24,000 nt of DNA, taken from NCBI GenBank assembly GCA_032252755.1, contig JAVUPY010000094.1, forward strand, positions 65,181 to 89,180, read 5' to 3'. Shown here piece by piece: positions 13,895 to 20,987 of the stretch (position 1 is the first letter of the stretch; every line of letters starts with the position of its first letter). Under the pieces are notes generated by a model. That model searched no databases, was not told the origin of the DNA, and was given only the letters and a program-made list of their open reading frames with translations. A program made the position numbers and the translations under genes. The DNA is from Terriglobia bacterium. GTDB lineage: Bacteria > Acidobacteriota > Terriglobia > Terriglobales > Acidobacteriaceae.

Positions 13895-14302
13895 ATGCCG
13901 CAGCGATGCGAAGACGCTTTTAGCAGTATCGAGGGTGCGCAGGAGTTTCTTGCACTGTTAGCGGAAGCAATTGCAGAAACCAGGCGCGATGTCGATGCGG
14001 ACATTCAGGATCATGGAACCAACGGTTCAAGAAGAATCGATGTCCTGAAGATCGCTTCGTATGACCTGGAAGCTTTGGAACATCATATCTACCGCAGTAA
14101 GAGGCTCTTGAATGACCTCCGTATGGTCCGACGATTGCTCATGCAGGAACGGGGAGTCGCCGGTACTGAACTGCCTGACCCACCAGCCCCGATTCCGCTG
14201 GTTCGTATGGAACTGCCCATTCCACGGCCGCACGTGTTGGAGAAACGCCGAGCCCGACCGAGCGTGGGCGGACGAGAAAAGTCAGTTGCAGTTGCCAGTT
14301 AA
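13895..14302 (+). CDS. hypothetical helical protein (135 aa)
   Basis: ATG preceded by GGAGGA 7 nt upstream. The N-terminal half is predicted helical and the C-terminus is Pro/Arg-rich. No family recognised. Confidence 0.5.
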   Translation: MPQRCEDAFSSIEGAQEFLALLAEAIAETRRDVDADIQDHGTNGSRRIDVLKIASYDLEALEHHIYRSKRLLNDLRMVRRLLMQERGVAGTELPDPPAPIPLVRMELPIPRPHVLEKRRARPSVGGREKSVAVAS

Positions 14303-15075
14303 GTGTTTTGCTGAGCTTTGGCGAGACGATCGCCTATCACCCCATATACGGACGCGTTGAACGCAAGACCGATATGTGTACCGGGGACCTCGACATCGAT
14401 CTTGGGATCGCCGGTCACACAGCACTTCCAGTCCACCACCCCGTCATCCCGCGTATAGATCGCTGTCTGGCGCACCGACTTTGACAGGCGCGTGCGCAGT
14501 GAGCACACGAAATCGCACGTACACCTTGACGTGTAGCAGTCGGGAAGAACCGCCGTTCCATACTCTTCCAGGATTTGGCTCCGCACAAATCCGGCAGCGC
14601 GCAGGATCGAATGGTGGGCGACAGTGCCCCTGAAAGGAGAGGCAATGGTTGTCACAGAAGCTATGTCGCGGGGCCGTTGGCGAGCGACCGAACGCGCCAT
14701 GATGCCTCCCAGGCTGTGCCCCACAAGGTGAACCTTGCCGTGGGTTTCCTTCAAAGCCTTGTCGATCGTTGCCCACAGCTTGTACTTGATCAACAGGTTG
14801 GGGCACTCGGCATTCAGCCCGATCCCCGATAGATAGGACCTGTAACCAATGCGTGTGAGCCAGCCGTTCAGGTGCTGGAGGTATTCGTCAGTTCCCAAAA
14901 ACCCTGGTATGACGACGACCCCCGAGCCGTCACCCCGTGGAACTCCAAACCCGTAATAGGTCGGGGAGGCATGGAGCAGAAGGAGTTCAGCTCCAAAAAA
15001 AGCTTCTTTCCAGATGGAAATATTCGCAGGACCCGACTCCCGGATACTGACAGTCTGCGTTCGACTATGGGCCAT
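14299..15075 (-). CDS. alpha/beta-fold hydrolase (lipase/esterase-like), paralogue 1
   Basis: Nucleophile elbow GHSLGG, oxyanion-type VVVIPGFLG, candidate Asp in YTRDDGVVDW and His in PGTHIGLAFN. About 45-50% identical by eye to the 16797-17579 product. Confidence 0.85.
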   Translation of the reverse strand: MAHSRTQTVSIRESGPANISIWKEAFFGAELLLLHASPTYYGFGVPRGDGSGVVVIPGFLGTDEYLQHLNGWLTRIGYRSYLSGIGLNAECPNLLIKYKLWATIDKALKETHGKVHLVGHSLGGIMARSVARQRPRDIASVTTIASPFRGTVAHHSILRAAGFVRSQILEEYGTAVLPDCYTSRCTCDFVCSLRTRLSKSVRQTAIYTRDDGVVDWKCCVTGDPKIDVEVPGTHIGLAFNASVYGVIGDRLAKAQQNT

Positions 15076-15174: not shown

Positions 15175-15206
15175 AAGAAAAATGCCGCGGACTTAACATC
15201 CGCGGC
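15175..15206 (-). terminator. Rho-independent terminator after the phasin-like gene
   Basis: Minus strand reads GCCGCGGA-UGUUAAG-UCCGCGGC followed by AUUUUUCUU. It starts 28 nt after the stop codon. Confidence 0.65.
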
Positions 15207-15233: not shown

Positions 15234-16154
15234 TCAGGCGGTCGCGGCCATTGACCTTGCTCGGCGTGGTTTTCGCCGGCCCACCTTCGCGCGATGAACT
15301 TCGACGACCTTCCCTCGGGGTTGCTTTGCTTTCATCATCGAATCGATAAGTGCCTTCTCGGCGTCGACGAAGCTCTTTACGCCTTCGCCTGTAAGCTTTG
15401 CGATCGGCAGGCGCATCGGTATAGCAACCTCAGTCGCATTCTTTGCTACTTTGAGGTTCGTCTTCATCTGCTGCGCGGCAACGTCGAGCAGCTTCTTTTG
15501 CGCCTCAACCAGCGTGTTTACAGATTCGCGTGCCAAGGTGCTGATTTCTGTCCTGGCAGCCGGTTTCATCGTGCGCTCACCCTTGCTTGATGCCTTCGTG
15601 GTTTCTTCTGAGATGACGTCGAGCAGCTTCTTCTGTGTGCGGACAAAGTTCTCCATGCCTTCGCGAGCCAACTCAATCAAACGACCACCGTCGTAACGTT
15701 TTCCGTTCTTGGCATCATTCAGGAATCCCTGCGTCTGCTTGCTGGCGATCGTAAGGAACTCCTGCTGCATGGTCACGAAGTTTTCGGTGCTGCGACGGAC
15801 CACGTCCACCATGGCAACGGCCGCGCGTGAATTATGGACCCGCTCCCTGACGCCGTTCATGAACAGTTCGTTCTCTTTATCGGCGAGGTCGAGCAGGACT
15901 CTCTGCGCCTCGACGAAGTTTGCCGTCCCTTCCACTGCAAGCTCATTCAATATTGCGTTCGGCGAGTGCTCCGGATGAGATATGCTCTCGCGCATTGCCT
16001 TCATCGTGCTGGCGTTCTGCCGCATTGCTACATCGATCAGGATCCGCTGGGTTGCGAAGAAACTCTCCATCGCCTGCTGTACCCAGCCCGATAACAGAGA
16101 TACAAAAGACGAGGGTCGCGGCTCCACCCCTTCCCGTTTCACTTCCGCTTTCAT
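15234..16154 (-). CDS. phasin-like granule/lipid-body structural protein made of six ~45-aa amphipathic repeats, with basic C-terminal tail
   Basis: Strong RBS GAGGAGG 5 nt before the ATG. The six repeats have cores ESFFATQRILIDVA, ANFVEAQRVLLDLA, ENFVTMQQEFLTIA, ENFVRTQKKLLDVI, NTLVEAQKKLLDVA and KSFVDAEKALIDSM. Each resembles the phasin motif A-x-EG-x-E-x-hh-E-x-x-x-x-hh. The gene is divergent from phaR. Confidence 0.7.
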   Translation of the reverse strand: MKAEVKREGVEPRPSSFVSLLSGWVQQAMESFFATQRILIDVAMRQNASTMKAMRESISHPEHSPNAILNELAVEGTANFVEAQRVLLDLADKENELFMNGVRERVHNSRAAVAMVDVVRRSTENFVTMQQEFLTIASKQTQGFLNDAKNGKRYDGGRLIELAREGMENFVRTQKKLLDVISEETTKASSKGERTMKPAARTEISTLARESVNTLVEAQKKLLDVAAQQMKTNLKVAKNATEVAIPMRLPIAKLTGEGVKSFVDAEKALIDSMMKAKQPRGKVVEVHRAKVGRRKPRRARSMAATA

Positions 16155-16172
16155 AAAAGCCTCCTCACTCTA

Positions 16173-16187
16173 TGCTGCACCGCAGCA
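16173..16187. promoter_or_regulatory. candidate PhaR operator: perfect palindrome TGCTGC-acc-GCAGCA
   Basis: 15-bp perfect inverted repeat containing CTGC-N3-GCAG. It lies between the predicted -10 and the RBS of the phasin-like gene. Confidence 0.6.
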
Positions 16188-16196
16188 ATCAAGAAA

Positions 16197-16226
16197 AGCA
16201 TAGGCTTGATCAGAGTGATATGTCAA
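16197..16226 (-). promoter_or_regulatory. sigma70-type promoter of the phasin-like gene (TTGACA-N18-TATGCT)
   Basis: On the minus strand, TTGACA is at 16226-16221 and TATGCT at 16202-16197, with an 18-nt spacer. Confidence 0.5.
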
Positions 16227-16236
16227 CATAGGTAAG

Positions 16237-16253
16237 CGCAATATTGCGTCGCA
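16237..16253. promoter_or_regulatory. second candidate PhaR site in front of phaR: CGCAAT/ATTGCG palindrome overlapping TGC-gtc-GCA
   Basis: The 12-bp perfect palindrome CGCAATATTGCG (16237-16248) overlaps TGCgtcGCA (16245-16253). It sits just downstream of a weak TTGATC-N17-TAGGTA promoter candidate (16206-16234) and 20 nt before the phaR ATG. Confidence 0.4.
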
Positions 16254-16273
16254 GCATCCGGGGAGAATCGGGA

Positions 16274-16807
16274 ATGTCAGCTCCACATATCATCAAGAAA
16301 TACGAAAACCGCCGGCTTTATGACACGTCGCGAAGTCGCTACGTGAACTTGGAGGAAATCGCCACCCTCATTCGCAAGGGCTACGAGGTCCGTGTGGTGG
16401 ACGCAAAAACCGGGGAAGACCTGACCCGTCCTACCCTGATGCAGATCATTGTCGAGGACAACAAAGAGGGATCGGCCGGACTCCCACTGGAACTGATGCG
16501 CCAGCTGATCGTCGCATCCGATCAGGTTGGACGGGATTTCCTGTCGTGGTATCTCAAGTCGGCCTTTGACGCCTACGGAAAAGTACAGCAGTCGTTCCGT
16601 AGCGGCCTCTCTGATCTGCAGGCGGCGGCGACATCCCCTATCGACTCCATCCGCCAGTTGCTCCGTATGCCGCAGGACGCAAAAGACGACAAAGGTGAAG
16701 TTTCTGAACTGAAGAAGAGGCTGGAGGAATTAGAGGCCCGCCTCCAAAAGCGAGCGCGACCTCGGTCAACCGGCGAGCGCACGAAGAAACGTAAAGCTAA
16801 GCGATAG
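16274..16807 (+). CDS. phaR: PhaR-family repressor (polyhydroxyalkanoate synthesis regulator type)
   Basis: IIKKYENRRLYDTSRSRYVNLEEIATLIRKGYEVRVVDAKTGEDLTRPTLMQIIVE closely matches the hallmark PhaR N-domain (IKKYPNRRLYDT..S.Y.TL.D...L......F.V.DAK.G.DLTR..LLQII.E). ATG at 16274 with GGGGAG upstream. Confidence 0.9.
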   Translation: MSAPHIIKKYENRRLYDTSRSRYVNLEEIATLIRKGYEVRVVDAKTGEDLTRPTLMQIIVEDNKEGSAGLPLELMRQLIVASDQVGRDFLSWYLKSAFDAYGKVQQSFRSGLSDLQAAATSPIDSIRQLLRMPQDAKDDKGEVSELKKRLEELEARLQKRARPRSTGERTKKRKAKR

Positions 16808-17579
16808 CGCTCCTTTCGCGTCGTCCAGTAGAAGCGCTGGCGAGTCGTTCTGCGATAACACGGTAAACCGCCGGGTTGAACGCCAAGCCGCTGTGGGTTC
16901 CGGAAACCTCGACATCCACGCTTGGGTCTCCGGTTCTGCAACTCGTCCATTCCACCAGGCCGTCATCTCGAGTGTAGACAGCAGTCAGCGGTAGTTTCGA
17001 TGGAAATGGCTGACGCAATGACTTCATGAATGCGCAGGGGCATTCCGCGGTGAGGCATTGTGGCCTCACACGCTCGGCCCGGTTGGCAATCAGGTACTTC
17101 CGGACAACTTCCGCGCTCTGAAAAATCCTTTTGCGAACGACTGTTTGCCGGACGGGAGATCCCAGCGTGATAACCGAAGCTATATCGTTTCGCTGCGTTG
17201 CGATCGAACGCGCGATCGCCCCGCCAAGACTGTGCCCGATCAGGTGGACTTTTCGCCCAGTCACTCTGGCAGCATCGGTAATGACCGGTTCCACGATCTC
17301 TGAAATCAGGAGATTGGGGCAGCTCGCATTGAAGCCGATTCCGGAATACGTCGGAGAATATCCCAACCGCTTCAGCCATGCATACATCACGATCAGGTAC
17401 GTATCGCCGTGTAGAAATCCGGGTATCAGGACAACTGCCGATCCGTCTCCTGGCGGCACCCCTGCTCCGTAATACACGGGTGAACCCAGCAACAGCACCA
17501 GTTCTACCGCATACAGCGATTCATGCCACTCCGGGTTGAGGGCTTCGCCGCGGTAACTATTCTCCTTCTTTTGCGACAT
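16797..17579 (-). CDS. alpha/beta-fold hydrolase (lipase/esterase-like), paralogue 2, last gene of the HMGR-WS/DGAT operon
   Basis: GHSLGG, VVLIPGFLHG, YTRDDGLVEW and SGTHSGLAFN. It starts 9 nt after the WS/DGAT stop. Its 3' end overlaps the phaR 3' end by 11 nt. Confidence 0.85.
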   Translation of the reverse strand: MSQKKENSYRGEALNPEWHESLYAVELVLLLGSPVYYGAGVPPGDGSAVVLIPGFLHGDTYLIVMYAWLKRLGYSPTYSGIGFNASCPNLLISEIVEPVITDAARVTGRKVHLIGHSLGGAIARSIATQRNDIASVITLGSPVRQTVVRKRIFQSAEVVRKYLIANRAERVRPQCLTAECPCAFMKSLRQPFPSKLPLTAVYTRDDGLVEWTSCRTGDPSVDVEVSGTHSGLAFNPAVYRVIAERLASASTGRRERSAIA

Positions 17580-17588
17580 AGTAATCTC

Positions 17589-19166
17589 TTATGCCGCTGT
17601 TGACGTCACTCCCGCGGCTGCAGCTCTTGCCATCGGCTTTGGCTTCGAGCCAATCCGATCGGTCTGCGCTTCGAGCGGAGTGGCCGCGACACGCCGAGAC
17701 TTTGTGTTGCGTGAGCGCTGCCTGCGGACTCCTGCTGCGCGGAGCAACTCCGCGACGCTCTCATCAACGAACTTCGGCAGCTTTTCCAGGTCCGGTGCGG
17801 CCTTTGCATCCCCGGTAAATCCGAAGTACACCATTCCGTTATACGAAAGCACTGCGCAGTTGATGCCCATCTCCCCGCCGATGGGAACATAGGGATAAGC
17901 CTTGAGCATTTCATGTCCGAGCAGATAAAGCGGCTGTCTCGGTCCGGGCACATTGGTACAAATCGTATTGCAGACACTGATGGGTAGCTCACTGATGATG
18001 GGCGCGAGCATAGCCTGCAGGACGGTCGGAATCGTACCGAGGAGCGTACCGGCAAACGACACGAACTCAGCTATGCGCGCTGTCTTTACGAATTCCATCC
18101 GCTGATGAATGGCGCTGAGCAGTTTCTTGGGAGTACGAATTCCCAGTGGAGCGGAAAATGGCGCGAATGTAATGTGATTTCCTAATCCGTCCGACTGATG
18201 TCTGCGCGTGCTCATCGGCACGACGATACGAATAGAGCGGCCGCGTGGATTCACCCCATGCAATTCGCTGTAACGCCGGAATGCCGCGGTGAGGACAGTG
18301 AGGATGGCATCGTTGACCGAGGCGCCGCACTTGCTGCGCAAAGCCTTTAAATATTCCAAACGAGTCTCGGTCCATTCGAAGCGCTGGGGCCCACGGCAGA
18401 GTACGTTGAAGGGCAACCGCTGAGGCACTTCCGCCAATTCGGCCGCAACGCGCACGATCTGGTCTTGCCCGGGCTTGCGTAAGTTGTTCGCAGCCTCAGC
18501 TTCGGCGGCGCCATTCTCTGAGATCCCCATGGCGCGCTGGAACATCGTGAGTACTCCGCTCCCGGCCTGCAGCAACCGCTCCAACGTCGAGAACCAGGAC
18601 TGGATTGCGGAATTGACCGTATCCGTCCCATTGCCGTTAACGGCAGGGCGGGGCACACGAACTTTAGGGCGCGTAAAAACCGGTGCCGTTGGAGATGTAT
18701 CCATCAAAACGTTGATCAGTCCCATGCCTGAAATGCCATCAGCCAGGCAGTGGTGTACACGTGCGATCATTGCCGTGCGGTTACCCTTAAGGCCGCGGAT
18801 CAGGGTCAGGTCCCATAACGGATGCTTTCGGTCCATATTGGGGCTGAGCACATTCGCCGTAACGTCTTTGAGTTCCGCAACCGTCCCACGCCTCAGCCGA
18901 ATCTCGTGGATGTGCCGCTCCAACCGGAAGTCAGTCGCAAACTCCCAATATGGCATGCCTACGTTCAGCGGCGGGACAACCACTCGTTGCATGTAGCGAG
19001 GGATCTGGCTGAGCTTCGAGGCGACCAGGTTGCGAAGATACGCGGCGGAGATTTCGCCGTCGAAAACTGCCAGCGAGGCAATATTAAGGGGAGCACCGTT
19101 GCGTTCGAGATAAAGAAACAGCGAGTCGCCAAACGATAAATATTCGCACTCGTGAGTCATGGGCAT
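17589..19166 (-). CDS. wax ester synthase / acyl-CoA:diacylglycerol acyltransferase (WS/DGAT family)
   Basis: Catalytic HHxxxDG motif present as ARVHHCLADGISG. The ~520-aa length and the N-terminal PLNIASLAVFDG plus C-terminal NxxxTNVPGP (ICTNVPGPRQPLYL) are typical of the family. The start may be 19166 or 19160. Confidence 0.9.
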   Translation of the reverse strand: MPMTHECEYLSFGDSLFLYLERNGAPLNIASLAVFDGEISAAYLRNLVASKLSQIPRYMQRVVVPPLNVGMPYWEFATDFRLERHIHEIRLRRGTVAELKDVTANVLSPNMDRKHPLWDLTLIRGLKGNRTAMIARVHHCLADGISGMGLINVLMDTSPTAPVFTRPKVRVPRPAVNGNGTDTVNSAIQSWFSTLERLLQAGSGVLTMFQRAMGISENGAAEAEAANNLRKPGQDQIVRVAAELAEVPQRLPFNVLCRGPQRFEWTETRLEYLKALRSKCGASVNDAILTVLTAAFRRYSELHGVNPRGRSIRIVVPMSTRRHQSDGLGNHITFAPFSAPLGIRTPKKLLSAIHQRMEFVKTARIAEFVSFAGTLLGTIPTVLQAMLAPIISELPISVCNTICTNVPGPRQPLYLLGHEMLKAYPYVPIGGEMGINCAVLSYNGMVYFGFTGDAKAAPDLEKLPKFVDESVAELLRAAGVRRQRSRNTKSRRVAATPLEAQTDRIGSKPKPMARAAAAGVTSTAA

Positions 19167-19174
19167 GTACCCTC

Positions 19175-20368
19175 TTACCTTCGGTTGCGCCCGAGTCGTT
19201 CGTGGGAGGAAACCCAGTCACCGTGAAGGATGGCAGCGACCAGCGAAATCTCGCCGGCGAGCACGACCGCGGCACAGATTTCCGCAAATTTGTTTACCTT
19301 GCCGTCACCGTAGCAACCCATCATCTCCAAACACTGTCTCTGGGTCGCCAATCCCGTGCCGCCGCCGAATGTGCCGACGATCAGCGAGGGAAGCGTAATA
19401 GACCAGTAAAAATCACCGTTTTCGAGAGCCTGCGTATACGTGAGCGATGAGTGTGATTCCGCTATGTTGGCGACGTCCTGGCCGGTCGCAATGAAAAGCG
19501 CAGCCAGTCCGTTTGCGGCGTGCGCACCAGTGCTGGATGATCCGGCTAAAAAAGCGCCCGAGATCTGAACCTCGCGAATCTTGCAGATCTCTTCGGTCTC
19601 GATGTGGAGGTACCGCCTGAGCAACTGTCCAGGAATAACGGCTTCCGCTACCACTCGTTTGCCACGCGTAAGCAGCATATTCAAATGCGAGTGCTTTTTG
19701 TCGGTGTCTATGTTTCCGCTGAGATAGTAAGAGGTGCGGAATGGACAGTTATCGCGAATCCATTCACAGGCCGCCTGCGTCGCCTTGCCTGTCATATTCT
19801 GACCAGCCGCATCTCCAGTCGTGTAATTGAAGCGCAGGTAGCGTACAGGCCCAACCGCGAACTGCTCGATCCTGATCAGTTTCCCGACTCGAGTCGTCGC
19901 TTCTGCCTCACGCTTGATATGCTCATAGTGCTCTTCGACCCATCGCCCGAAAGATCTTGCCAGGCGCGCGTTTCCAAGCAGGAAGGCGGGCGCGCGCTGC
20001 ATCGCATCATCCACTACAGTCGTTCGGACACCCCCGGACTCGCTGAGCACCCGCATGCCGCGGTTGTAGCTTGAGACCACCGTGCCCTCGGTGGTCGCCA
20101 GGGGGATGAAGAACTCGCCTTCGGCATACTCACCGTGAATTTGAAGTGGCCCGGCTACTCCTATCGGCACTTGTGCTACACCAATGAAGTTTTCGATATT
20201 TCCAGGGAGAATTGCGGGATCGAAAGAGTAGTGCGCGAGGTGAGTGAGATCGACGCCAGTGCTTTCCAGGATGAATCCACGTCGCATCGCGGCCATTTCA
20301 TGTGTGTAATCGTTGACCCGGGAGCGCGGAATAGTGATCCTCGGTTCGTCTTGGAGATCGGTGGCCAT
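19175..20368 (-). CDS. HMG-CoA reductase homologue (class I-type catalytic domain, soluble, ~397 aa)
   Basis: NIENFIGVAQVPIGVAGPL, PLATTEGTVVSS, TGDAAGQNM (cf. DAMGxNM), GTFGGGT (cf. GTVGGGT), and a C-terminal SSHE catalytic-His region. I chose the ATG at 20368 (MATDLQ), which has GGAGGG 9 nt upstream. The stop lies 8 nt before the WS/DGAT start. Confidence 0.85.
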   Translation of the reverse strand: MATDLQDEPRITIPRSRVNDYTHEMAAMRRGFILESTGVDLTHLAHYSFDPAILPGNIENFIGVAQVPIGVAGPLQIHGEYAEGEFFIPLATTEGTVVSSYNRGMRVLSESGGVRTTVVDDAMQRAPAFLLGNARLARSFGRWVEEHYEHIKREAEATTRVGKLIRIEQFAVGPVRYLRFNYTTGDAAGQNMTGKATQAACEWIRDNCPFRTSYYLSGNIDTDKKHSHLNMLLTRGKRVVAEAVIPGQLLRRYLHIETEEICKIREVQISGAFLAGSSSTGAHAANGLAALFIATGQDVANIAESHSSLTYTQALENGDFYWSITLPSLIVGTFGGGTGLATQRQCLEMMGCYGDGKVNKFAEICAAVVLAGEISLVAAILHGDWVSSHERLGRNRR

Positions 20369-20513
20369 TGGGGAACCCTCCGAAGATGTGGTTCGCAACA
20401 AATCCATCGGCCCAGAGCAGCCTGTGGAGTCGCATGCGGGCACACAAGCTCCAAGAGCAGGGCCTGCCGAGAACAGAAGACAATCCGGTAAAAGCGTAGT
20501 ACGTTTCACACGA

Positions 20514-20523
20514 TGCGAAGCAG
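20514..20523. promoter_or_regulatory. TGC-gaa-GCAG box (PhaR half-consensus) in the divergent region between the HMGR operon and the 138-aa gene
   Basis: aTGCgaaGCAGat. It is nested in local inverted repeats GCAGAT-N11-ATCTGC and CGTGA-N6-TCACG (minus-strand reading). Confidence 0.25.
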
Positions 20524-20570
20524 ATTTATTTGCGTGATCTGCGTCACGTTTCGCATTTTGGCGCGAGGCC

Positions 20571-20987
20571 ATGATGAAAAAACTTACACAGGTCGAACAG
20601 GCGCGTGCACTGATGGCCGAAGCTCTTGACTGGTCCGTCATGAGGTGGTTGAGCGAGAAGAAGCGAGTCCGGAAAGCCGCCGACCAAGCAAATGACTTGT
20701 TGAATGATGCCGAAGCGGAGATTCGCAAAAAGTGGAGTCCGGAATTCAGATCCATCTACGAAGAATCAGGATTCGCGTCTCCCGAAATGAAGCGCCTCGC
20801 CAGCAGAATTCGGCGCGAGCATGATGCCGCAACCCGGTTCAGAGTCGAGGCCGAAAAAACCTTCGATGCGGCAGAGAAGAGACTGAGCACGGCCATGGCC
20901 CGCGAAGGATGCCGGCAAGCCATCGAAGGGTGGGACCATCACCTCGAAGCCATTCGTCTGGCGGAAACCGCACTTGAAGCTGACTAG
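20571..20987 (+). CDS. hypothetical all-helical protein (138 aa)
   Basis: ATGATG start with GAGG just upstream. Charged, helix-prone sequence. Divergent from the HMGR operon. No family recognised. Confidence 0.5.
   Translation: MMKKLTQVEQARALMAEALDWSVMRWLSEKKRVRKAADQANDLLNDAEAEIRKKWSPEFRSIYEESGFASPEMKRLASRIRREHDAATRFRVEAEKTFDAAEKRLSTAMAREGCRQAIEGWDHHLEAIRLAETALEAD

What the first reader, a model, noticed from the sequence alone, without database searches (positions are those of the whole stretch)
16155..16273. Divergent phasin-like/phaR control region with a perfect TGCTGC-N3-GCAGCA operator placed between -10 and RBS
The 119-bp spacer contains a near-consensus promoter for the phasin-like gene (TTGACA-N18-TATGCT, minus strand). 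A 15-bp perfect palindrome TGCTGCaccGCAGCA (16173-16187) follows immediately, ahead of the GAGGAGG RBS. That is the textbook position for a repressor roadblock.

As I recall, PhaR operators characterised in alphaproteobacteria are TGC-rich, with a CTGC-N3-GCAG-type palindrome. The site here contains exactly CTGC-N3-GCAG.

In front of phaR there is a second composite site: CGCAATATTGCG overlapping TGCgtcGCA (16237-16253). This is consistent with autoregulation. A 12/12 palindrome is very unlikely by chance in 119 bp.
Basis: partly seen in the sequence, partly recalled or inferred. Interest (0 to 1): 0.7.

Follow-up and report, generated by a model that had tools for sequence, protein, structure and literature searches.

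The report
PhaR-type operator pair in Acidobacteria
The palindrome is a real, deeply conserved repressor-binding site of the known PhaR type. It most likely switches on a storage-granule coat protein in soil Acidobacteria, and the genes around it point to fat storage rather than bioplastic storage.

Summary
TGCTGCaccGCAGCA lies at 16173-16187, downstream of a TTGACA-N18-TATGCT promoter on the minus strand and upstream of the GAGGAGG ribosome-binding site.

As a palindrome alone it is weak evidence, because 6+6 palindromes are common in this window. Comparison with other species is what makes the case:
- In 80 of 80 species-level Terriglobales loci, a box matching TGCTGCAnTGCAGCA at 13 or more of 14 positions sits within 90 nt upstream of the orthologous gene.
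- The outer 12 bases are invariant or nearly so, the centre base is free, and the surrounding spacer is scrambled.
- A second, degenerate box (window 16242-16256, core TGCGTCGCA) lies 66-70 bp away in 66 of 70 spacers, next to the start of the PhaR-like gene.

Both boxes carry the core TGCRNYGCA of experimentally validated proteobacterial PhaR boxes. The regulator has a full PHB_acc_N DNA-binding domain.

- CGCAATATTGCG is not conserved and is probably coincidental.
- The 306-aa target belongs to no curated phasin family.
- No PHA genes are nearby. The neighbours are lipase-like hydrolases, WS/DGAT and fatty-acid enzymes.

Verdict: a new member of a known kind, namely a PhaR operator and autoregulation module, here in Acidobacteriota. 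Whether it senses neutral-lipid bodies remains open.

The parts
15234..16154 (-). Target gene. It encodes a 306-aa all-helical protein built of six ~45-residue amphipathic repeats (motif [EK][NS]F[VF]xxQxxLLD[VL]A). It is a putative storage-granule or lipid-droplet coat protein ('phasin-like').
   Evidence: ORF. No Pfam or NCBIfam family reaches threshold. Of 24 family members, 19 give weak Phasin_2 hits (best E 0.007) and 10 give weak PHA_synth_III_E hits. The AF2 model has six long helices but a pLDDT of only 45. The repeats and the hydrophobic moment (z=4.7) are. The family has 1516 relatives, all unnamed.
15184..15206 (-). Intrinsic terminator directly after the target gene. It makes the gene a monocistronic unit.
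   Evidence: 9-bp stem with 7 GC pairs, followed by ATTTTTCTTG.
16160..16166 (-). Ribosome-binding site GAGGAGG of the target gene.
   Evidence: Sequence. GGAGG is conserved at this position in the orthologous spacers.
16173..16187 (.). Operator O1. It is a perfect palindrome TGCTGC-ACC-GCAGCA with PhaR-box core TGCACCGCA at 16176-16184. It begins 9 nt after the -10, so it covers roughly +3 to +18 of the predicted transcript.
   Evidence: Conserved at 13 or more of 14 positions in 70/70 spacers and 80/80 loci, with 12 outer positions invariant or nearly so (one exception in 70) and a free centre. It shares the 12-mer TGCACCGCAGCA with the EMSA-validated S. meliloti mmgR box.
16197..16202 (-). 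-10 hexamer TATGCT of the target-gene promoter.
   Evidence: TAnnnT is conserved, with 8-9 nt to the palindrome in 69/70 spacers.
16221..16226 (-). -35 hexamer TTGACA of the target-gene promoter.
   Evidence: TTGACA is present in 68/70 orthologous spacers, and the spacer is 17 nt in 66/70.
16242..16256 (.). Operator O2. It is a degenerate box TATTGC-GTC-GCAGCA (reverse complement TGCTGCGACGCAATA) with core TGCGTCGCA at 16245-16253. It lies 15 nt upstream of the target -35 and 18 nt before the phaR ATG. Its centre is 69 bp from the O1 centre.
   Evidence: The consensus is TGyTGCnnYGCA(c/a)A, with TGC...GCA kept in 69/70. The centre-to-centre distance is 66-70 bp in 66/70.
16237..16248 (.). CGCAATATTGCG palindrome. 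It is not part of the conserved element. Its left half is the right arm of O2 and its right half is lineage-specific.
   Evidence: 6/6 palindromic pairs only in the window, and 0-3/6 in the 69 other species; kept only in the 90%-identical relative.
16206..16234 (+). Speculative phaR promoter, TTGATC-N17-TAGGTA. The -10 lies back-to-back with the target -35, and O2 starts 7 nt downstream of it.
   Evidence: Read from the sequence. It was not found by the consensus scan. An AT-rich TATAT block is conserved at this position in the orthologues. This part is inference only.
16274..16807 (+). PhaR-like regulator, 177 aa. It has an N-terminal PHB_acc_N DNA-binding domain, a C-terminal coiled coil and a basic tail.
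   Evidence: PHB_acc_N E=7.7e-29, covering 61/61 profile positions. TIGR01848 scores 105.4 bits against a cutoff of 109.45. PHB_acc is not detected. It is the divergent neighbour in 69/80 loci.
14299..15075 (-). Context gene: a lipase-like alpha/beta hydrolase with a GHSLGG serine box. Its family is next to the regulator-target pair in 73/81 loci.
   Evidence: In L025 a paralogue has its own box-bearing promoter.
16797..19166 (-). Context genes: a second alpha/beta hydrolase (16797-17579) and a wax-ester synthase/DGAT (17589-19166), convergent with phaR.
   Evidence: The same order WS/DGAT-hydrolase-phaR-target-hydrolase is found in close relatives. WS/DGAT lies within 4 kb in 20 of the 81 loci compared.

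Best explanation
The 119-bp spacer is a back-to-back divergent control region. It carries two binding sites for the adjacent PhaR-like repressor.

O1 (16173-16187) is a high-affinity perfect palindrome that starts 9 nt after the -10 of a strong sigma-70-type promoter. A bound dimer would therefore cover the transcription start and the early transcribed region of the 306-aa coat-protein gene and block initiation or promoter escape.

O2 (16242-16256) is a weaker, half-degenerate box 69 bp away. It lies just upstream of that promoter's -35 and between the putative phaR -10 and the phaR start codon. It would add upstream repression, possibly cooperative, and give negative autoregulation.

By analogy with characterised PhaR proteins, the repressor would be titrated away from DNA when hydrophobic storage inclusions appear. 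That would release transcription of the coat protein. Once the surface is covered, free PhaR would return to the DNA.

Shown here: the sites, their geometry, their conservation across species, their match to validated PhaR boxes, and the DNA-binding domain of the neighbouring protein.

Inferred: binding, the sign of regulation, titration by inclusions, and the chemical nature of the inclusion.
For: Conservation:
- O1 is present at 13 or more of 14 positions in 80/80 species loci. Its 12 outer positions are invariant or nearly so (one exception in 70) and its centre is free (A29 G33 C5 T3).
- Information content peaks only at the -35, the -10 and the box. The rest of the spacer is near zero.
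- Geometry is fixed: TTGACA in 68/70, a 17-nt spacer in 66/70, and 8-9 nt from the -10 to the box in 69/70.
- O2 is conserved, with 66-70 bp spacing in 66/70.
- Boxes matching at 12 or more of 14 positions number 102 in 675 kb, against 1-5 in shuffles. About 90 of them lie upstream of the target gene.
- Boxes stay with the target gene when phaR is elsewhere, and stay with phaR when it has moved.

Match to known PhaR sites:
- R. sphaeroides CTGCNNNGCAG.
- S. meliloti YGCRNYGCR boxes validated by EMSA and mutation. These include TTGTGCAGTGCAGCAACA, which lies between the -10 and the TSS of a depolymerase gene, and TTGTGCACCGCAGCATTA of mmgR.
- R. eutropha YTKNTGCRNYGCANMAR with a single-nucleotide centre, and sites upstream of the -35 and at the TSS of phaP1. 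O1 is the only match with one mismatch or fewer in the window.
- Weaker PhaR binding at phaR promoters than at phaP promoters is documented. This parallels perfect O1 against degenerate O2.

Regulator: PHB_acc_N in 20/20 orthologues.
Against: - There is no binding, TSS or expression data.
- The proteobacterial consensus patterns are too degenerate to be significant in the window on their own (28 hits against 27.7 expected).
- The regulator falls just below NCBI's PhaR equivalog cutoff and lacks a detectable PHB_acc domain.
- The target is not a recognised phasin.
- No PHA synthesis genes lie within 4 kb in any of the 81 loci, so what titrates the regulator is unknown.
- O1 would also form a 5'-terminal hairpin in the mRNA, so an RNA-level contribution cannot be excluded.
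- The phaR promoter is only guessed.
Confidence: 0.78

Rival explanations
1. The palindrome acts mainly at the RNA level. As a 6-bp hairpin at the extreme 5' end of the coat-protein mRNA, it would stabilise the transcript or modulate translation, with no repressor involved.
For: With the TSS predicted about 7 nt after the -10, the palindrome would lie within a few nt of the 5' end of the transcript. The hairpin is part of the minimum-energy fold.
Against: - The fold is no more stable than shuffles (z=-0.64).
- None of the stem positions shows a compensatory or G-U-compatible change in 70 species. The same transition (TGC to TGT) is tolerated in O2 in 17/70. That pattern indicates base-specific readout rather than structure.
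- The same sequence motif recurs as O2, upstream of the -35 and outside this mRNA, in a form that cannot make a comparable hairpin.
- There is no Rfam match.
Confidence: 0.07
2. The boxes are real operators, but for a different transcription factor encoded elsewhere. The PhaR-like neighbour binds other DNA.
For: In 11 of 80 loci phaR is not the immediate neighbour, yet the box is retained. No binding data exist.
Against: - The box core and half-site match validated PhaR boxes from alpha- and beta-proteobacteria position by position.
- The regulator's DNA-binding domain is a full-length PHB_acc_N.
- Where phaR has moved (L012, L025, L034) it carries boxes in front of itself.
Confidence: 0.08
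3. The palindromes are chance features of a GC-moderate spacer and have no function.
For: Perfect 6+6 palindromes occur at the chance rate in the window (34 against 31.7). In addition, 2.5% of 119-nt stretches hold two. This does explain CGCAATATTGCG.
Against: For O1 and O2 chance is excluded by conservation in 80/80 and about 66/70 species respectively, at fixed distances from the promoter, within otherwise unconserved spacers.
Confidence: 0.01

Closest known systems
Ralstonia eutropha (Cupriavidus necator) PhaR / phaP1 operators
   Same: - Degenerate palindromes with a single-nucleotide centre and core TGCR-N-YGCA.
- One site upstream of the -35 and one around the TSS.
- The repressor also binds its own promoter more weakly.
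- The Terriglobales consensus TGCTGCAnTGCAGCA(A) fits YTKNTGCRNYGCANMAR at every specified position but one.
   Different: - The organism is an acidobacterium.
- The outer arms (TGC repeated, TGCTGCA) are far more rigidly conserved here.
- The target protein is a 306-aa six-repeat protein, not a Phasin_2 member.
- The regulator lacks a detectable PHB_acc domain.
- No phaCAB genes are nearby.
Sinorhizobium meliloti AniA (PhaR) boxes (WNWDDNYGCRNYGCRNHHWNW)
   Same: - The same core.
- Validated boxes such as TTGTGCAGTGCAGCAACA (between the -10 and the TSS of depolymerase gene SMa1961) and TTGTGCACCGCAGCATTA (mmgR) are nearly identical to O1.
- Phasin promoters carry two boxes.
   Different: - In S. 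meliloti the two boxes flank the -35, whereas here they sit 66-70 bp apart.
- The S. meliloti regulon is broad and tied to PHB. Here only the coat gene, phaR and occasionally a hydrolase or an acyl-CoA dehydrogenase carry boxes within the DNA examined.
Rhodobacter sphaeroides / Paracoccus denitrificans PhaR 'TGC-rich' boxes (CTGC-N3-GCAG)
   Same: O1 contains exactly CTGC-N3-GCAG. These systems also have a divergent or adjacent phaP-phaR arrangement and TGC-rich repeats.
   Different: Those systems sit within pha gene clusters of PHB producers. The primary papers could not be read here; the facts were taken from later papers that cite them.
Rhodococcus jostii MLDS / MLDSR (lipid-droplet coat protein and its droplet-sequestered regulator)
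   Same: The logic is the same if the inclusion here is neutral lipid: a regulator binds the operator of the coat-protein gene and is sequestered by the droplets. WS/DGAT genes lie in the neighbourhood here.
   Different: The protein families are unrelated. MLDSR is not a PHB_acc_N protein, and no homology was tested or claimed. This is a functional analogy only.

Membership tests
PhaR regulators (PHB/PHA accumulation regulators) | N-terminal PHB_acc_N (PF07879) DNA-binding domain | tested here: met
   E=7.7e-29 at 100 bits, covering profile positions 1-61 of 61. Present in 20/20 orthologues.
PhaR regulators (PHB/PHA accumulation regulators) | Score above NCBIfam TIGR01848 (PhaR equivalog) cutoff | tested here: not met
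   105.4 bits against a cutoff of 109.45. The window protein has the best E-value of the 20 orthologues scanned, so none appears to reach the cutoff. This is a narrow miss.
PhaR regulators (PHB/PHA accumulation regulators) | Central PHB_acc (PF05233) domain | tested here: not met
   No hit in the window protein even at E<=10. Only 3/20 orthologues hit, at E>=0.023 and below threshold.
PhaR regulators (PHB/PHA accumulation regulators) | Binds PHA granules or hydrophobic polymer and is released from DNA | not testable with these tools
   Needs biochemistry.
PhaR regulators (PHB/PHA accumulation regulators) | Genomic linkage to PHA synthesis genes (phaC/phaA/phaB) | tested here: not met
   None within +-4 kb in 81 loci. 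The neighbours are hydrolase, WS/DGAT, acyl-CoA synthetase, acyl-CoA dehydrogenase, ABC1 kinase, ALDH and GMC oxidoreductase. The rest of the genomes could not be searched.
PhaR box (operator) | Palindrome with core TGCR-N-YGCA / YGCR-N-YGCR (contains GC-N3-GC) | tested here: met
   O1 is TGCACCGCA and O2 is TGCGTCGCA. The family consensus is TGCTGCAnTGCAGCA.
PhaR box (operator) | Placed at the coat/phasin promoter so as to occlude it (at the TSS and/or next to the -35) | tested here: met
   O1 starts 8-9 nt after the -10 in 69/70 spacers. O2 ends 14-16 nt before the -35 in 64/70.
PhaR box (operator) | Weaker site in the regulator's own promoter region | tested here: met
   O2 is degenerate (7-13 of 14, mostly 10-11) and lies about 22-28 nt from the phaR start. 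Relocated phaR genes keep a box.
PhaR box (operator) | Bound by PhaR in vitro or in vivo | not testable with these tools
   EMSA, footprinting or ChIP would be required.
Phasins (PF09361 Phasin_2, PF05597 Phasin, TIGR phasin models) | Significant match to a curated phasin model | tested here: not met
   For the window protein, Phasin_2 gives E=0.078 at 13.6 bits against a cutoff of 24.9. No NCBIfam phasin model hits at E<=1. Among 24 relatives, 19 give weak hits with best E 0.007.
Phasins (PF09361 Phasin_2, PF05597 Phasin, TIGR phasin models) | Amphipathic alpha-helical, non-enzymatic protein with no transmembrane segment | tested here: met
   Six predicted long helices, though the model is low-confidence. 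The hydrophobic moment has z=4.7 against shuffles, there is no hydrophobic stretch of 12 or more residues, and there are six repeats. At 306 aa it is larger than my recollection of typical phasins; that size comparison was not checked against a source.
Phasins (PF09361 Phasin_2, PF05597 Phasin, TIGR phasin models) | Located on the surface of storage granules | not testable with these tools
   Needs granule proteomics or fluorescent fusions.

The most novel reading that the evidence does not exclude
In Terriglobales, the PhaR-type repressor and its invariant operator may control a previously unrecognised family of coat proteins for neutral-lipid (triacylglycerol or wax-ester) bodies rather than PHA granules. 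The regulator would sense lipid droplets through non-specific hydrophobic binding. It would thus do with a PHB_acc_N protein what MLDSR does in Rhodococcus.

If so, counting PHB_acc_N genes as a proxy for PHA producers in soil surveys would misassign a large acidobacterial group. It would also give a genetic handle on neutral-lipid storage in Acidobacteriota, which one paper calls unexplored.
Probability: 0.3. Interest if true: 0.75.

Novelty: new member of a known kind. Interest (0 to 1): 0.45.

Why it matters
The finding extends the PhaR box to a phylum far from the alpha- and beta-proteobacteria where it was defined. It shows that the half-site TGCA plus an outer A is kept across phyla.

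It also gives a very clean, testable operator for Acidobacteria, a dominant but genetically poorly tractable soil group: TGCTGCAnTGCAGCA, present at 13 or more of 14 positions in 80 of 80 species.

It flags a large unnamed protein family (more than 1500 relatives) as the likely main coat protein of acidobacterial storage inclusions.

Finally, the conserved company of WS/DGAT, lipase-like hydrolases and fatty-acid enzymes, with no pha genes nearby, raises a concrete question. Soil carbon-storage studies use PhaR as a marker of PHA production. Is that valid for this group?

Tried and rejected
- Palindrome statistics as evidence: rejected. 6+6 palindromes occur at the chance rate.
- Matching the degenerate proteobacterial consensus sequences with mismatches inside the window: uninformative, with 28 hits against 27.7 expected and 38 against 30.8.
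- CGCAATATTGCG as an operator: rejected by conservation.
- Known RNA family: no Rfam hit at gathering threshold or at E<=1.
- RNA hairpin stability: not above shuffles.
- Solved structures for either protein: nothing meaningful.
- AlphaFold model of the coat protein: pLDDT 45, so I ran no fold search, because the matches would be meaningless.
- In-gene box-like sequence TGCTGCGGCGCAGCG inside the coat gene in about 35 loci: it encodes the invariant LRRS residues and is degraded in the window, so I judge it a coding constraint rather than an operator.
- Regulon search for boxes upstream of WS/DGAT or other neighbours within +-4 kb: none beyond the coat gene, phaR, one hydrolase (L025) and an acyl-CoA dehydrogenase (L012, and probably L034, where the gene is cut off by the end of the locus).
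- Naming isolates that carry the family through cluster look-up: no names were returned.
- Reading Maehara et al. 2002 directly: the paper is not held.

Full report
**Observation**

- TGCTGCACCGCAGCA lies at 16173-16187.
- The minus-strand promoter TTGACA (16226..16221)-N18-TATGCT (16202..16197) is the only sigma-70-like hit in 15900-16500.
- GAGGAGG is the reverse complement of 16160-16166. The ATG of a 306-aa ORF (15234-16154, minus strand) is at 16154..16152.
- CGCAATATTGCG lies at 16237-16248 and TGCGTCGCA at 16245-16253.
- The ATG of a 177-aa ORF (16274-16807, plus strand) is at 16274.

The perfect 15-mer is unique in the window. The statistical argument, however, does not hold.
- Perfect 6+6 palindromes with a 0-4 nt loop occur 34 times in 24 kb, against 31.7 in shuffles.
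- 2.5% of 119-nt stretches contain two of them.
- CTGC-N3-GCAG is expected 0.6 times per window.

The palindrome alone therefore proves little.

**The genes**

The plus-strand ORF has a full-length PHB_acc_N DNA-binding domain (E=7.7e-29, profile 1-61 of 61). It scores 105.4 bits on TIGR01848 (PhaR), just under the 109.45 cutoff. The PHB_acc domain is not detectable in it. Only 3 of 20 orthologues show PHB_acc, and only below threshold. None of the 20 exceeds the window protein on TIGR01848. I therefore call it PhaR-like.

The 306-aa protein belongs to no Pfam or NCBIfam family.
- Nineteen of 24 relatives give weak Phasin_2 hits (best E 0.007) and 10 give weak PhaE hits.
- It has six ~45-residue repeats with the motif [EK][NS]F[VF]xxQxxLLD[VL]A.
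- Its helical hydrophobic moment is well above shuffles (z=4.7), and it has no membrane-like segment.
- Six long helices are predicted, but the model is low-confidence (pLDDT 45).
- Its family has 1516 relatives, all unnamed.
- A strong intrinsic terminator follows the gene at 15206..15184, so the gene is monocistronic.

**Comparative evidence**

A profile of this family retrieved 80 loci from species-representative genomes. All are Terriglobales or Terriglobia (Acidobacteriota), and their proteins are 50-66% identical to the window's.
- The PhaR-like gene is the divergent neighbour in 69 of 80 loci.
- In 80 of 80 loci a box matching TGCTGCANTGCAGCA at 13 or more of 14 positions lies within 90 nt upstream of the coat-protein start.
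- In 70 aligned spacers, 11 of the 12 outer positions are invariant and the twelfth has a single exception. The two positions flanking the centre are nearly so (A 64/70, T 66/70). The centre is free (A29 G33 C5 T3).
- Information content along the spacer peaks only at TTGACA, TAnnnT and the box. It is near zero elsewhere.
- Geometry is fixed: TTGACA in 68/70, a 17-nt spacer in 66/70, and 8-9 nt from the -10 to the box in 69/70.
- Boxes matching at 12 or more of 14 positions number 102 in 675 kb, against 1-5 in shuffles. About 90 of them lie upstream of the coat gene.

A second box with consensus TGyTGCnnYGCA(c/a)A sits 66-70 bp centre-to-centre from the first in 66 of 70 spacers. It lies 14-16 nt upstream of the -35 and about 22-28 nt from the phaR start. 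In the window it is 16242-16256.

The overlapping CGCAATATTGCG palindrome is fully palindromic only in the window and its 90%-identical relative. Elsewhere it scores 0-3 of 6 pairs. It is a lineage-specific coincidence.

**Link to PhaR**

Two recent papers give fuller consensus sequences.
- S. meliloti: WNWDDNYGCRNYGCRNHHWNW, validated by EMSA and by point mutations. The validated boxes include TTGTGCAGTGCAGCAACA, placed between the -10 and the TSS of a depolymerase gene, and TTGTGCACCGCAGCATTA of mmgR (PMC12542648).
- R. eutropha: YTKNTGCRNYGCANMAR. These are palindromes with a single-nucleotide centre, with sites upstream of the -35 and at the TSS of phaP1 (PMC12849132).

Both window boxes carry the core TGCRNYGCA. 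O1 shares 12 consecutive bases with the mmgR box. O1 is also the only match with one mismatch or fewer to the R. eutropha pattern in the window.

On their own these degenerate patterns are not significant in the window. The argument rests on their agreement with the independently derived, conserved Terriglobales motif.

Weaker PhaR binding to phaR promoters than to phaP promoters is documented. This mirrors perfect O1 against degenerate O2.

**Mechanism**

O1 begins 9 nt after the -10 in the window, so it covers about +3 to +18 if transcription starts about 7 nt after the -10. A bound dimer would occlude RNA polymerase or block promoter escape.

O2, centred near -59, also lies between the putative weak phaR promoter (TTGATC-N17-TAGGTA, 16206-16234) and the phaR start. 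This is consistent with autoregulation and perhaps with cooperative binding.

Titration of the repressor by nascent hydrophobic inclusions is inferred from the family's known behaviour.

**Rivals**

A purely RNA-level role for the hairpin is unlikely, for four reasons.
- The fold is not unusually stable.
- No compensatory or wobble-compatible change occurs in 70 species, although the same transition is tolerated in O2.
- The motif recurs outside the transcript in a form that cannot form a hairpin.
- There is no Rfam match.

A different regulator cannot be excluded without binding data. It is disfavoured by the motif match and by boxes that travel with relocated phaR genes. Chance is excluded for O1 and O2.

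**Context and the open question**

No PHA synthesis gene lies within 4 kb in any of the 81 loci compared. The recurrent neighbours, with the number of loci that carry each, are:
- a lipase-like serine hydrolase (73);
- WS/DGAT (20);
- acyl-CoA synthetase (27);
- acyl-CoA dehydrogenase (27);
- ABC1 kinase (18);
- aldehyde dehydrogenase (18);
- GMC oxidoreductase (7).

The window's own clade keeps the order WS/DGAT-hydrolase-phaR-coat-hydrolase.

The same box-bearing promoter unit drives the hydrolase in L025 and an acyl-CoA dehydrogenase in L012. In L034 the same unit is present, but its downstream gene is cut off by the end of the locus.

The literature held here bears on the question in three ways.
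- It reports PHA synthases in very few Acidobacteria.
- It calls neutral-lipid storage in the phylum unexplored.
- One preprint uses PhaR as a proxy for PHA producers in soil.

A lipid-droplet precedent for a sequestered regulator exists in Rhodococcus (MLDS/MLDSR). I could not search the rest of these genomes for phaC, so the nature of the inclusion is unresolved.

**Verdict**

This is a genuine, strongly conserved PhaR-type operator pair: a new member of a known kind, in a new phylum, with an uncatalogued target protein. It is ordinary in mechanism. It is moderately interesting for the cross-phylum conservation of the box and for the possible link to neutral-lipid storage.

Noticed in passing
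L017, L019, L027, L028, L030, L031, L036, L048 (spacers of 275-407 nt between phaR and the coat gene; e.g. L027:3700-3950): The box/-35/-10/box promoter unit is duplicated. The extra copy points the same way as the coat gene and is followed by only about 80-230 nt, ending in a TCCCAAnTTGGGA palindrome. In L025 the same position holds a complete alpha/beta-hydrolase gene. The extra unit may therefore be a remnant left by loss of that gene, or it may drive a small PhaR-controlled RNA (compare the AniA-repressed sRNA MmgR in S. meliloti).
   Followed up: partly
L012:8584-8861 and L034:6990-7198: A complete PhaR-box promoter (TTGACA-N18-TATACT-N9-TGCTGCAATGCAGCG) precedes an acyl-CoA dehydrogenase gene divergent from a relocated phaR. 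The local regulon can therefore include a fatty-acid beta-oxidation enzyme.
   Followed up: partly
window 15788-15802, and about +320 to +360 nt inside the coat gene in about 35 loci: A box-like sequence TGCTGCGGCGCAGCG recurs inside the coding region, where it encodes the invariant residues LRRS (R120 R121 S122). It is degraded in the window (TGCTGCGACGGACCA). I judge it a coding constraint, although intragenic PhaR sites are reported for R. eutropha phaP3.
   Followed up: partly
window 14299-15075 and 16797-17579 (both minus strand): Two paralogous 258/260-aa serine hydrolases (GHSLGG box, PGAP1/lipase-like) flank the regulator-target pair. Both carry a cysteine-rich insert (C..C.C motif). 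The family accompanies the module in 73 of 81 loci, and its substrate is unknown.
   Followed up: partly
window 19175-20755 (minus strand): An HMG-CoA reductase with an N-terminal extension of about 150 residues lies immediately upstream of WS/DGAT on the same strand. The pairing recurs in 6 loci. The reason for the linkage is unexplained.
   Followed up: no
34 related loci, e.g. L062:1363-2319: A conserved 318-aa protein with no Pfam family lies next to the hydrolase in the arrangement unknown-hydrolase-phaR-coat-acyl-CoA synthetase-acyl-CoA dehydrogenase. It is another uncharacterised member of the neighbourhood. It is not present in the window.
   Followed up: no
window 13895-14302 (plus strand), with equivalents in L081, L083 and L085: A conserved 135-aa ORF with no family assignment lies between the downstream hydrolase and a 4'-phosphopantetheinyl transferase gene in the window's clade.
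   Followed up: no
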